Origin: Flectonema sp. DT1601
Taxonomy: Eukaryota
Length of the DNA stretch: 64,000 nt
Assembly: GCA_964019425.1 (NCBI GenBank)
Contig: OZ025790.1
Coordinates: 744,001-808,000 of the forward strand
Direction: 5' to 3'
A program made the position numbers and the translations under genes. Positions 1-38,245 of the stretch are shown here, piece by piece. The notes under the pieces are model-generated. The model was not told the origin of the DNA. It was given only the letters and a program-made list of their open reading frames with translations, and did no database searches. Every line of letters begins with the position of its first letter. The stretch's first letter is position 1.

Positions 1-17
1 ACCCTCCATTGCAGCCA
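1..17 (-). repeat. Target-site duplication (partial, cut by window edge) at the 3' end of the 890-bp element
   Basis: accctccattgcagcca at 1-17 is identical to 911-927 and to the TSDs at 31556-31575 and 38226-38245. Confidence 0.9.
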
Positions 18-907
18 TATAAATGTATTTTCTAGTGCCAAGTAAAAGATATGGCAATAAACGGATACCGTCCCCCAGGCCGTTCCAGTGGAGCACCAGG
101 TTGGCACAGTCGGAGGATGCGGTCCAGGTAGGTTAAGGTGGCTACCACACCCAAAAGTCCACAGCAGAGTAACAAAGTCGTGCTCGGGCCGTAAAGGCTA
201 GCGGTACGTGTTTTCGCCCGCGACAAGCCGTGTGATTACGGTACAGGACGGGGTCAACCGCACTTAACAGTCGGATTCCATTGGTACAATCAGGAAGATA
301 CCCCTACTCGCATGGAGGAGCAAGCCCCTAAGGAGATATGTGTTTTTCACAACATGACAACACAATTAACAAGAATACAGCACGGGCGTGAGGAAAAGCC
401 GTAACATGGAAAGTAGGAATAAAAATTAAAAGGTGTGAGGAAGGGTTTCATTCTCCACACTTAATGTGAAGGTGTACCAAGGATTACGCGCATGGGTTAA
501 CCGACACGTGATGAAACCAACGGGCTGGGGAGACAACAAGGGACGGAGCCGAAAACGGCACCCCCCGAAGGGGCACGCCACAAAAGAAAATAAAAACCCG
601 GGTGATCTTGTAAGGCTCCAGATCTATAAAGTTCCGGGCCGGTTCACCCCCTCTGGCAGTATGTCGTTGCTGTCGCCTGTTGGTCGTTAGACCGAAGGAG
701 CTACCGGGAAAATAAAAAGGAAAGTAACAGTCAAAACTTCGAGAGGTGACGCTCCGACCGCGCCCCGAGTTATACCAGAAAACAAAATAAAGGAAAAAGT
801 TAAACGGGATGCCAGGTTTTGTGCACCTTTTCACCCCCAGTTGGGGGTTACCCCTACATCCCACAGTAGGTAAGGCCCAAACACGCGGTCCTGGCCCCCG
901 CGGAATG
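18..907 (-). mobile_element. 890-bp non-coding insertion (putative non-autonomous SINE-like retroelement) in cathepsin L gene copy A
   Basis: Flanked by direct repeats of the protease GCNGGL codons; no credible ORF; many hairpins; 3' motifs shared with the LINE at 31576-31655. Strand inferred from those motifs. Confidence 0.75.
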
Positions 908-927
908 TTAACCCTCCATTGCAGCCA
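908..927 (-). repeat. 20-bp target-site duplication TGGCTGCAATGGAGGGTTAA
   Basis: ttaaccctccattgcagcca on +; identity with copy B ends at 907/38225. Confidence 0.92.
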
Positions 928-1436
928 GAATCGGTTTTGTCACATGAAACAAGTTCCTGCTCTGAGACGGATGTCAACTTGTTACCAGCAAGGAAGTTCT
1001 GTCCTTCAATTCCTCCGGTGGTGGAGAACGCCCAGCACGATCCGCACTGAGCCTGGTTCTTCACCTGGGTCACGGCTCCCTTGCTTCTCCAATCAACAGC
1101 GTCGGCAGCAGCTCTGTTCTGTGACTCACTGAACATCTTGGCTGGGCCAGCCTTGGTAGGAACGTTCAGGCTGTGGTACACTTTGAACTCATCAGCGCTC
1201 AGGTCAGAGTAAACGTTCATTCCGAAGCTCGCTCCAGGGTTTGAAGCCTCCAGCTCAGCTCCCTTCATCATGTTGTTCTTGAAGATCGATCTTCTCTTCA
1301 CTTCGTCAGATCCGGAGTACTGCTTTCCGTAGGTCTCCTTGTAGTTGCTCCACAACAGACCCTCGTTCTCCTCAACGTAGCTGAGGGGAAGGGCCGAGGT
1401 GGCCGCGGCCATGGCGAGCATGCAGGCAGTCTTCAT
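908..1436 (-). pseudogene. 5' half of cathepsin L-like cysteine protease, copy A (signal peptide, I29 prodomain, catalytic Cys), interrupted by the 890-bp element; 3' half lies outside the window
   Basis: [15 protein letters not shown] signal; ERFNIN/GNFD-like prodomain motifs ([19 protein letters not shown]); [28 protein letters not shown] followed by non-protease sequence. Confidence 0.9.
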
Positions 1437-1469
1437 TTTTGAAAAATGTGTGTGTTAAAGTAGAAATAA

Positions 1470-35900: not shown

Positions 35901-36387
35901 GTTCTTCCGTGTTCGCTTCTGATCGTACATCTCCGTAGAACGAAATGGCATGCAGAACCTTGCCTTTTCCGTATGCTACGCCAGCGTGTACGTATCTTCC
36001 GGATTCTTCGAGTACCTTCGGTCCTCTGATCCTTCTAATCGGAGCGTTGTGTTTCGCGAGGACCGCTACTCCACCCGTGGTCTTGTAAGACCGTTCGTCG
36101 ATTCTTCTCCTTTCGGAGGGTTTGCTGAAGACCGCCGACCAGCCCTCTCGTTCGAGTTGTTTGAGCATCTTCTTCTGTTCTGTTTCAGAAAGAAGTGTCT
36201 CTTGCACTAGGATGATGTCGGCGTCCAGCGCTATCACCGCTGCGACGTTTTTCATCATCGTCGTGGTATTCACCGTTGCCACCGAGAATTCCGAAGGGAG
36301 TCTCATTGTTGCGTTGTCGTCCCCAATCCGTCCTGTGTCGGTCCAGCCGCTTCCTCTCCTTTCTGTGTTGTGGAGGTTCCGAGTCAT
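32964..36387 (-). CDS. LINE ORF2: apurinic-like endonuclease, reverse transcriptase, CCHC zinc finger
   Basis: APE: VATVN, DIILVQET, GGVAVL, IGGDFN, RIDAVL, PTHKPV. RT: AAGTDG, RPITV, QTGFRKG, DFKKCFDLVPH, GILQGCPLS, YADD. Zn finger: CKNC…ESLDHNFWIC. Confidence 0.95.
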
Positions 36388-38213
36388 TGCGATTTCTCCA
36401 GAACTGCCGCCAGCAGTAGTTCCAACCTCTCCATTCTCGCTTCCAGTGAGGATCCCGCCGTCGGTTTCTGTTGTTGCGTTGGTTTCGGTGGCGGTTGTGT
36501 TTGTGCTTGAGGTGGTTTCGGTGGTGTGTTCGGTGTATCCGATCTTCCAGCGTCCCTCCAGAGCTTCGATCCCTTCTTCTTCCCATGGAACTTCAGGAAG
36601 TCGGTCTTGCAGTATCGCTTCCCGTTGTTCTCCGTCGGATCTTTTCGCGTTTCGGGTGGTGTTGCTACAACGCGTTTCACACCATTTTGTTGGGTCACCT
36701 TCGTTGTTGGCTTCTGTCCCACCTTCTCAACAAGGCAGAGCTTCCCTCCCACCGCGACGGTGTCGGTCTCCCTCTCCGGGCCCCTCACAATCATCCAGCG
36801 GGTACCGTCTCTCACTCCTTCCCAGGTCTTCCTGACGTCCCATCCCTCCTCAGCTATCAGCTGTTTGACTGCCTCATCGGCAGTCATCCCCAGCGGTATG
36901 CCGCTAACCTTCGCTTCTGGCATTTTCGCTGGGATGCCCAGCTTCCTCCTGGAGGTGTTCTCTCCGGATCTCCTCACCCTCATTCCCAGGCCGTCTTTGT
37001 TCTGCACCAGTCCGATGCAGTTCGGGTCCTCCTCGGCTTTCACCAGAGCATCGTCCAGTTTTTCTTCGCCCGGGAGCCAGATGATAGCTCTGTTTTCGTT
37101 CCTGGATTTCTCCATCACGAAAACCCCGGCTTTTCCGGATGTCCGAAGGAAGGCCTCCACTTCTTCCTCTCTAACCCTTACTACGGCCGAAGCTTCTTCT
37201 GGGTTTATCCTGGGTAAATACCCGTCCACGAAGCCCTTCATTTCCCTCAGGCAGGTTGTGACCCTCTTCGGGTTTCGCTGGAATCGTTTCCAGTCCTCCG
37301 CCGAGCATCTCTTCTTGGTCGCCCTCACGACCAATTCGGTCGTGGGAGCGACGCCTCCCGATCCAGCAATGCCCTTCATCTGGGCCTCCTTTCCTAGATC
37401 CGTGATCCAGACGATGGTTATCCTCGTCTGGATCGCGGATCCTTCCTTCCCCTCCTTTTTTTCCAGGAGCACCTGCTCCGATCTACTGGTCTCCGTTACC
37501 TGTGATATCGTCACCAGGCTGAGACACTCCCACGCCGACAGTGCCACCCGCCGCGCGATCCATTTTCTTGCGGTACCGGCCGTCATCAACGCCACTCCCC
37601 GCTTCTCCTTCTCCATCTCCTCGACTGATCTCACTGTCGAGTACCAGTCCCCCTGCCGTAGGGACCATCCTTCCGTCGCCTCCTTCTCTCTCTTCTCTTC
37701 CTGTTCCCACTTGATCTGGGCCGCGCTGGCTTTCATCCTCCCCAGCAGTTCCTCCTCCGCCTTCGTTTCCAACTCCTTCTTCCGCAGAGTCATCGCGGTC
37801 TTCCTTTCCTTCCCCTCCTCCGCGTTGAGTTGGTGGGTTTCCGTCTGGCCGAGTTGGTCGGCCTCGGACACCGCCGCCAACTCCTCGCCGCCCATGACGG
37901 TGTCGCCATCCGCCGCCTTCTCCTCCTTCTTCTTCTTCTTGACGATTTTCTTCGTCCTCGGTCCTTCCGTCTTTTCCGCCATCAGGGCTTCCACCTGCTT
38001 GGCGTGTTCATCGCGTAGCGATTTGATCGCCTGTGCGGTCTCTTCTTTCGCCCGTGTCGCCGTCGCCTTCGCTTCTTTTTCCTTCTCCGCGAAGACGCGT
38101 CTCGACCTCTCCTCGAGGTCCAGGTAGTTCTTATGGAGTACCTGTTCCCTTCGCTCCCTACGTTCGGCTTCCTTCTCCGCTTGCTCTGAGCTCTTCTTCA
38201 ACTGCTCCGCCAT
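36384..38213 (-). CDS. LINE ORF1 (coiled-coil, putative RNA-binding; possibly 5'-truncated)
   Basis: 609 aa; charged coiled-coil N-terminus; RRM-like [11 protein letters not shown] segment; Pro/Gln tail; stop overlaps the ORF2 start (ATGA). Confidence 0.8.
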
Positions 38214-38225
38214 TCCGTCGAGTCG

Positions 38226-38245
38226 TTAACCCTCCATTGCAGCCA
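38226..38245 (-). repeat. 20-bp target-site duplication at the 5' side of the LINE
   Basis: ttaaccctccattgcagcca. Confidence 0.95.

What the first reader, a model, noticed from the sequence alone, without database searches (positions are those of the whole stretch)
1..38245. Two different elements inserted at the identical nucleotide of a cysteine protease gene: a sequence-specific retrotransposon system targeting a protein-coding gene
Seen: protease copy B carries a 6,650-bp APE/RT LINE and copy A carries an otherwise dissimilar 890-bp element. Both are bounded by the same duplication, TGGCTGCAATGGAGGGTTAA (codons G-C-N-G-G-L); 17 of 20 bp are visible at the window edge for copy A. Known: site-specific non-LTR elements (R1, Tx1, R2, CRE/SLACS) mostly target rDNA, snRNA/tRNA/SL-RNA genes, telomeres or microsatellites, and GCxGG is a highly conserved papain-family motif. 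Inference: independent insertions with the same boundaries mean the endonuclease is sequence-specific, and the tandemly amplified protease gene serves as a conserved multicopy safe harbour. I do not know of a described example of this.
Basis: partly seen in the sequence, partly recalled or inferred. Interest (0 to 1): 0.95.

Follow-up and report, generated by a model that had tools for sequence, protein, structure and literature searches.

The report
Retrotransposons targeting one cathepsin gene codon
In a marine flagellate (likely a diplonemid), a LINE retrotransposon and a short non-coding element sit at the same nucleotide of two neighbouring cathepsin L-like genes, and database proteins show both breaking further gene copies at the same codon, which likely means the LINE's own enzyme aims at this conserved protein-coding motif, a kind of target already known from trypanosome RHS genes.

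Summary
Observation confirmed. A 6,650-bp APE/RT LINE (B) and an 890-bp non-coding element (A) interrupt two tandem cathepsin L-like genes at the same nucleotide with the same 20-bp duplication. The empty allele is in 3 of 3 runs laid. Public gene calls add six records in which a protease reads through GCNGGL into an element: four into A (paralogs 100, 100, 81 and 58% identical) and two into B with different 5' ends; the window's B is itself 5'-truncated. That argues for repeated, independent target-primed insertions. A is not wholly unrelated: its 3' end shares a two-block stem with B, so it is likely B's non-autonomous partner. Host: likely a diplonemid. Not shown: that most B copies sit at this site. 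Of about nine B copies, one or two are tied to it directly and two more by shared contig length. New are the LINE lineage, the 20-bp duplication and a conserved enzyme motif as target. New variant of a known kind; interest 0.68.

The parts
1..17 (-). Downstream copy of the target-site duplication of element A (17 of 20 bp visible at the window edge)
18..907 (-). Element A, 890 bp, non-coding, no poly(A); likely the non-autonomous partner of B
   Evidence: no Rfam family match, no tRNA
68..121 (-). 3' two-block motif of A, predicted stem shared with B
908..927 (-). Upstream copy of the 20-bp target-site duplication (last base of Ser, codons G-C-N-G-G-L, first base of Met)
908..1436 (-). Cathepsin L-like protease copy A, 5' half (I29 prodomain, catalytic-Cys motif); reads on into A and stops at 831
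   Evidence: identical to P0288; its twin at 38161-38772 scanned
6436..30022 (-). Giant RTX-repeat gene that forms the rest of the 30,648-bp tandem unit (context only)
30756..31575 (-). Cathepsin L-like protease copy B, 3' half (His and Asn motifs, DUF3586 C-terminal extension)
31556..31575 (-). Downstream copy of the 20-bp duplication of element B
31576..38225 (-). Element B, 5'-truncated two-ORF APE/RT LINE, same orientation as the host gene, no poly(A) tail
31596..31638 (-). 3' UTR two-block motif of B, predicted stem shared with A
31656..36387 (-). ORF2: APE endonuclease, RT, CCHC knuckle, unassigned helical region, three C-x2-H-x4-C-x2-C...CC..HH repeats (about 31,800-32,105); frameshifted near 32,965 in this copy, intact (1,577 aa) in others
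36384..38225 (-). ORF1, N-terminally truncated; its stop overlaps the ORF2 start (ATGA)
38226..38245 (-). Upstream copy of the 20-bp duplication of element B
38226..38754 (-). Cathepsin L-like protease copy B, 5' half
38788..38789 (-). Trans-splice acceptor AG; a contig of run X1 carries a spliced-leader-like loose end here (leader sequence recalled)
   Evidence: table 7

Best explanation
A two-ORF APE/RT LINE (B) and an 890-bp non-coding element (A) interrupt multicopy cathepsin L-like genes at the same codon, and B's ORF2 protein likely recognises this conserved sequence, would nick it and copy either its own RNA or A's into it by target-primed reverse transcription. Shown: identical boundaries and a 20-bp duplication in the window; read-through junctions at the same codon in six database proteins; three different B 5' ends; intact genes alongside. 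Inferred steps: (1) the bottom strand is nicked at the start of the 20-mer and the top strand 20 nt further on, which gives the fixed duplication; (2) incomplete reverse transcription gives the variable 5' ends of B; (3) A is mobilised in trans through the 3' stem it shares with B; (4) the elements lie in the host gene's orientation and have no poly(A), so they are probably transcribed with the host's polycistronic or spliced-leader transcript, and read-through RNA bearing the downstream 20-mer would pair with the nicked strand and sharpen targeting, as reported for R1Bm and R2Ol; (5) specificity may come from the APE domain, the three C-terminal Cys/His repeats, or both (untested). Insertion separates the catalytic Cys from the His/Asn half and likely inactivates the copy, which the host tolerates because intact paralogs remain.
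For: Window: exact 20-bp duplication at both elements; APE and RT domains. Empty allele: joint 31555>38226 skipping 6,670 bp in 3 of 3 runs, with 0 other letters in X1 and X2. Element A tail (24 of 24 aa) directly after GCNGGL in P0288 (2 contigs), P0315, P0323 and P0099, whose 5' halves are 176/176, 176/176, 122/151 and 102/175 identical to P0288. Element B after GCNGGL in P0317 (145/176 identical; tail 13 of 13 aa = B from nt about 2,920) and in P0357 (protease 1-176 fused in frame to an ORF1 129 aa longer than the window's). Four records begin at the Met right after the site (P0287 on 3 contigs, P0289, P0290, P0296). Of 27 records in the site-bearing subfamilies, 15 are intact, 10 are halves broken at this site and 2 are broken elsewhere. 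None of 8 records with another sequence at the motif, and none of 5 with CDTTDS upstream, is broken there. Three of the six contig lengths given for B ORF2 records (634,926; 475,405; 461,604) recur among broken proteases; none of the 10 lengths listed for the sister family P0002 (15 of 22 members listed) recurs among protease records. Shared A/B 3' blocks: chain score 22, reached by 0 of 500 shuffles and 0 of 65 other B windows; the blocks pair with each other with two both-side changes in the outer helix. Target-flank annealing: passages of PMC6530143 and PMC7265360.
Against: No genome was held, so flanks were read only from protein calls: codon resolution, 5' junctions only, no DNA. About nine B copies are implied by 12 ORF2 records on 7 contigs. 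Copies on contigs of 178,086, 25,152 and 6,105 bp and a second copy on 475,405 have no listed broken protease. Two protease records break elsewhere (P0070, P0314) with tails too short to assign. The A/B 3' likeness failed a first test (affine local alignment: 55 of 1,000 shuffles as good for the last 200 nt, 290 of 1,000 for whole A). The chain test was chosen after seeing the motif, and the folding z-scores were weak (-1.75 to +0.28). No run covered B beyond stray fragments, so expression or activity is not shown. A diverged, rearranged B-like record exists (P0367) whose site is unknown. No biochemical test.
Confidence: 0.62

Rival explanations
1. Loose preference with a hot spot, as for ingi/RIME in RHS genes: B recognises a short degenerate consensus found at many genomic sites, the protease motif happens to match it well, and many copies lie elsewhere.
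For: About five of roughly nine B copies cannot be tied to a protease. A related family's ORF1 (P0360) is fused in frame to a weak BspA-LRR match, not a protease. ingi-clade elements show only 'relative site specificity' yet give RHS hot spots (passages of PMC3820030, PMC6967402).
Against: The family is small (12 ORF2 records) while seven same-codon junctions of A or B are seen, in paralogs down to 58% identity. Three of six B contig lengths recur among broken proteases. The duplication regenerates the target, so extra copies on one contig may be stacked at the same site (inference).
Confidence: 0.28
2. One or two ancestral insertions were spread among protease genes by tandem duplication, unequal crossing-over or gene conversion, with no encoded specificity.
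For: The tandem units are 99.98% identical, so homogenisation is active. A's 5' junction is the same in all four records.
Against: Three different B 5' ends all begin right after GGL. A and B share no alignable body. A sits in paralogs that keep their own residues 19-30 codons upstream of the site.
Confidence: 0.05
3. The inserts are removed from the RNA as non-canonical introns, so they behave as mobile introns and the genes stay functional.
For: Diplonemids have non-canonical introns, and euglenid ones are flanked by short direct repeats (PMC12621601, abstract and passages). Uninterrupted sequence is seen in an RNA run.
Against: No GT..AG or GC..AG pair within the 20-mer gives a precise excision (read from the sequence). 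Intact genes (15 records) explain the uninterrupted contigs. Reported median intron lengths are 37-107 nt.
Confidence: 0.03
4. Assembly artefact: two haplotypes joined in tandem, or mis-placed repeats, create the picture.
For: 4 differences in 25.8 kb could be two alleles. The window's B junction protein is not in the protein collection. No long reads were seen.
Against: Exact duplications, an empty allele in three runs and junctions on at least five contigs. If the two units are alleles, two different inserts at one locus still mean independent insertion.
Confidence: 0.02

Closest known systems
ingi/RIME (T. brucei) and L1Tc (T. cruzi) in RHS (retrotransposon hot spot) genes
   Same: [quoted passage not shown]
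   Different: ingi-clade duplications are 12 bp (PMC3820030), here 20 bp. B has two ORFs, no RNase H match and three C-terminal Cys/His repeats (ingi: one ORF with RNase H, recalled). The target is a papain-family motif conserved across eukaryotes, not a genus-specific family. A shares only a short 3' stem with B, whereas RIME shares long ends with ingi (recalled).
Site-specific APE LINEs of the R1 and Tx1 clades (R1Bm, SART1, TRAS1, R7)
   Same: APE endonuclease, two ORFs, fixed site in a multicopy target, 5'-truncated copies; R1Bm needs downstream target sequence in its RNA for accurate priming (passage of PMC7265360).
   Different: [quoted passage not shown] Outside the four closest relatives, RT identity is 22-28%; clade membership was not testable.
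CRE/SLACS/CZAR (spliced-leader-gene-specific retroposons of trypanosomatids)
   Same: Site-specific insertion in a tandem gene array of a euglenozoan.
   Different: Restriction-like endonuclease rather than APE (PMC4640811), and an RNA-gene target.
Group II introns and inteins with homing endonucleases (recalled)
   Same: Aim at conserved motifs of protein-coding genes.
   Different: They splice out and leave no duplication; here the gene is broken and a 20-bp duplication is made.

Membership tests
APE-type non-LTR retrotransposon (element B) | APE endonuclease followed by a non-LTR RT | tested here: met
   PF03372 and PF00078; best solved match human L1 ORF2p, E 2e-29
APE-type non-LTR retrotransposon (element B) | Target-site duplication, no LTRs, variable 5' truncation | tested here: met
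   20-bp duplication; no terminal repeat in self-comparison; three different 5' ends
Sequence-specific LINE (R1/Tx1 type) | Independent insertions at one position of a multicopy target | tested here: met
   Window plus six read-through records; codon resolution outside the window
Sequence-specific LINE (R1/Tx1 type) | Most genomic copies occupy that target | tested here: inconclusive
Sequence-specific LINE (R1/Tx1 type) | Encoded endonuclease nicks the target | not testable with these tools
   Needs a nicking or retrotransposition assay
R1 or Tx1 clade | RT phylogeny groups with clade references | not testable with these tools
   No labelled Repbase references available; in a 28-row tree B groups with P0002-P0004 (93/94), other hits 22-28% except P0005 at 41%
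ingi clade | 12-bp target-site duplication | tested here: not met
   20 bp versus 12 bp (PMC3820030 passage)
ingi clade | Single ORF with RNase H (recalled) | tested here: not met
   Two ORFs overlapping at ATGA; no RNase H family at E up to 5
ingi clade | 76-79 bp 5' signature with HDV-like ribozyme | tested here: inconclusive
   No Rfam match on 1-1600; own HDV descriptor found none in A but had no positive control; B's true 5' end is not in the window
Non-autonomous partner / SINE-like (element A) | No coding capacity, same duplication and site as the LINE | tested here: met
   No Pfam hit for its 151-aa ORF; only read-through tails match among fetched proteins; same boundaries
Non-autonomous partner / SINE-like (element A) | 3' end shared with the partner LINE | tested here: inconclusive
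   Two-block match beyond 500 shuffles and compensatory pairs, but post hoc, and a first alignment test gave 55 of 1,000
Classical SINE (element A) | tRNA-, 7SL- or 5S-derived head | tested here: not met
   ARAGORN 0 genes; Rfam only four chance-level hits in 1-1600
Dualen/RandI | Both APE and a restriction-like endonuclease | tested here: inconclusive
   No family match for the C-terminal 637 aa; model too poor to search (mean pLDDT 45); only a weak Josephin match in relative P0004 (E 0.012)

The most novel reading that the evidence does not exclude
Diplonemids carry a lineage of strictly sequence-specific APE LINEs whose families each use a different expanded protein-coding family as safe harbour (cathepsin L here, perhaps BspA-type LRR genes for a sister family). 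They are expressed from the host gene's spliced-leader transcript, ORF1 possibly as an in-frame fusion (P0357), and they mobilise a SINE-like partner to the same nucleotide, retaking roughly a third of the susceptible enzyme genes.
Probability: 0.25. Interest if true: 0.86.

Novelty: new variant of a known kind. Interest (0 to 1): 0.68.

Why it matters
Known target lists for sequence-specific LINEs are RNA genes, microsatellites, telomeres and other transposons. The one protein-coding case found, RHS, involves only relatively specific elements and a genus-specific family. A LINE/partner pair aimed at a conserved papain-family motif would show that an expanded enzyme family can serve as a safe harbour like rDNA, and that coding constraint can hold a target stable. 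It gives a defined 20-bp duplication site and a small APE domain for testing how APE LINEs gain specificity, and a new candidate for site-directed insertion tools. It also matters for annotation: 10 of 27 protease records in the affected subfamilies are halves.

Tried and rejected
Whole genome: none held, so flanks were inferred from protein records. blastn A versus B: no hit below E 2.5; full-length local alignment no better than shuffles (87 of 100), so A is not an internal deletion of the window's B. tblastn of the longer ORF1 (P0357) and eight relatives against A gave no credible match (best E 0.04). P0317's tail was tested in all six frames of A and B and matched only B. Metagenome scan with the ORF2 alignment: 194 pattern matches, 2 distant loci (23-29%), neither with a protease. 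Viral contigs: none for ORF2 or the 3' motif. Rfam, ARAGORN and an unvalidated HDV descriptor found nothing in A. AlphaFold model of the ORF2 C-terminal 637 aa had pLDDT 45 and was not used for fold search. ESM Atlas gave only sub-0.9 telomere-resolvase/integrase leads for the C-terminus and nothing for ORF1. Runs X1-X3 were found with small word shares (0.06-0.15) and cover only the protease halves; lack of cover of B proves nothing. Proteases of other assemblies with N-terminal extras (P0201 and P0205 clusters) look like intron read-through, not insertion at this site. Earlier scan findings: none. Ten paper searches listed no cathepsin- or papain-targeting retrotransposon; the library is open-access only, and the primary RHS paper was not held.
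Full report
Observation. The 20-mer occurs exactly at 908-927, 31556-31575 and 38226-38245 on the minus strand, with no match in 100 shuffles, and 17 of 20 bases at the window start. Between the copies lie an 890-bp element A (18-907) and a 6,650-bp element B (31576-38225). 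For B the duplication cannot be extended either way; A has the same boundaries as far as visible. The flanking gene halves match Inhibitor_I29, Peptidase_C1 and DUF3586, a cruzipain-type cathepsin L-like protease; B's long ORF matches an APE-family endonuclease and an RT. The two gene copies belong to a tandem unit of 30,648 bp (protease plus a giant RTX-repeat gene) whose copies differ at 4 of 25,776 positions. They could also be two alleles, which would not change the argument.

Host. B's ORF2 is 48-50% identical to two Flectonema neradi proteins, and the best named protease hits are from Diplonema papillatum. A contig of run X1 has a loose end at the AG at 38,788 that resembles the euglenozoan spliced leader (leader sequence recalled). 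The host is therefore likely a diplonemid. No genome was held.

Empty site. All 3 runs laid show the joint 31555>38226, skipping 6,670 bp (element plus one duplication), with no other letters in the joining contigs of X1 and X2 and 5 per side in X3. The elements are thus insertions into a gene whose uninterrupted form exists. B itself was not covered apart from stray fragments in X3, which proves nothing.

More junctions. The public gene calls appear to be unspliced ORFs, so broken proteases read on into whatever follows. Of 27 records in the subfamilies that carry GCNGGL (clusters of P0188, P0070, P0069, P0068, plus P0099 and P0357), 15 are intact, 6 are 5' halves running into an element right after GGL, 4 are 3' halves starting at the next Met, and 2 (P0070, P0314) break elsewhere with unassignable tails. 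Four of the six run into A with the same 24 residues: P0288 (identical to the window's copy A, on 2 contigs), P0315, P0323 (122/151 identical to P0288) and P0099 (102/175). P0357 is the protease's first 176 residues fused in frame to an ORF1 129 residues longer than the window's. With the window's copy, B thus shows three different 5' ends at one codon, the mark of separate reverse-transcription events. None of 8 records with a different motif sequence and none of 5 with CDTTDS upstream is broken at the site; numbers are small, the records are not independent, and not all are known to come from one assembly. All assigned junctions are in the host gene's orientation. These data have codon resolution, show 5' junctions only, and I could not see their DNA.

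How strict? Twelve ORF2 records on 7 contigs imply about nine B copies. Three of the six contig lengths given recur among broken proteases; none of 10 listed for the sister family P0002 recurs among protease records (15 of 22 members listed; it may be another assembly). One ORF2 record (P0036) is tied to the site directly, P0357 is a second direct junction whose contig is not given, and two copies are tied by shared contig. The rest, including two on a 178,086-bp contig, have unknown flanks. They may be stacked at regenerated targets, sit in unlisted paralogs, or lie elsewhere. This is the main open point and the reason for 0.62 versus 0.28.

Element A. It has no coding match, no tRNA and no Rfam family and no alignable body in common with B. 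Near their 3' ends A (68-121) and B (31596-31638) share two collinear blocks, the only two matches of that pattern in the window. A two-segment score was reached by 0 of 500 shuffles and 0 of 65 other B windows (2 of 500 with a harsher mismatch cost). The blocks pair with each other, with both-side changes at two pairs of that helix. Against this: the statistic was chosen after seeing the motif, a prior affine alignment test gave 55 of 1,000, folding z-scores were weak, and two sequences give little covariation power. I read A as a likely non-autonomous partner.

Element B. ORF1's stop overlaps ORF2's start. ORF2 (1,577 aa in intact copies; frameshifted near 32,965 here) has APE, RT, a CCHC knuckle, an unassigned helical region and Cys/His repeats found in all five family members aligned (three copies in four, two by the strict pattern in P0003). 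There is no RNase H match and no poly(A). RT identity falls from 67-69% (three relatives) and 41% (P0005) to 22-28% for all 23 other hits; no labelled clade references were available. Structure prediction and Atlas searches did not resolve the C-terminus or ORF1.

Mechanism. Shown: the fixed site, the duplication, the truncations and intact paralogs. Inferred: staggered nicks 20 nt apart by ORF2p; priming on B or A RNA through the shared stem; expression by read-through from the host transcript, with downstream target sequence pairing to the nicked strand, by analogy with R2Ol and R1Bm (passages of PMC6530143 and PMC7265360). The in-frame fusion in P0357 is 1 of 3 B junctions, which chance alone would give, so dependence on the host start codon is only a possibility. 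The insertion parts the catalytic Cys motif from the His and Asn motifs (papain architecture recalled) and should inactivate the copy.

Comparison. [quoted passage not shown] But trypanosome RHS genes are a protein-coding multigene family with one hot-spot site for the LINE ingi and the SINE RIME, predicted to disrupt more than half the members (passages of PMC7563717; PMC6967402). ingi-clade elements make 12-bp duplications and have only relative specificity (passages of PMC3820030). B works like that system, and like R1/Tx1 elements, but fails the ingi features tested. Ten searches of the open-access library (listings seen) showed no protease-targeting element. For the D. papillatum genome paper I saw passages and a term search of 7 supplementary files with hits in one spreadsheet only, so its supplementary repeat section may not have been among them. 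For PMC12621601 I saw the abstract and passages; for PMC12278014, PMC8869645 and PMC13580325, passages. Bringaud 2002 was not held, and the 2025 Nature survey of site-specific retrotransposons by Fell and colleagues was seen only as a reference; either may bear on novelty.

Verdict. New variant of a known kind; interest 0.68, rising to about 0.86 if the genome shows strict specificity and sister families with other protein-coding targets.

Noticed in passing
window 6436-30022 (-) and 43754-64000 (-): A giant ORF of 7,357 aa with many RTX calcium-binding repeats (PF00353, 29 stretches in the last 2,500 aa), preceded by a 554-aa ORF in another frame; it alternates with the protease in a 30.6-kb tandem unit. 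Bacterial-looking architecture in a eukaryote.
   Followed up: partly
protein P0360, residues 35-101: ORF1 of a sister LINE family (37% identity) is in frame behind a weak BspA-type LRR match (E 0.003, below cut-off): possibly a sister family inserted in another expanded protein family. One record.
   Followed up: partly
proteins P0003, P0004: The F. neradi relatives carry an N-terminal Josephin-like stretch (weak, E 0.012 in P0004); P0004 also has a 2A-like NPGP motif before the APE domain (consensus recalled).
   Followed up: partly
cluster of P0005: 7 of 15 listed ORF2 records of this relative lie on one 2,160,207-bp contig, as expected if it also targets an array.
   Followed up: no
protein P0343: A 144-aa protease 3' half starting at the Met after the same motif in another protease cluster, probably another species; cause unknown.
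   Followed up: no
proteins P0357, P0360, P0362: An N-terminal motif resembling RN..AH..NGNG is shared by ORF1s of three families; function unknown.
   Followed up: no
window 31556-31575, run X1 record 5: A diverged paralog aligns through the whole 20-mer while differing at many synonymous sites just upstream; the site may be unusually conserved at DNA level, but the table was cut, so this is unverified.
   Followed up: no
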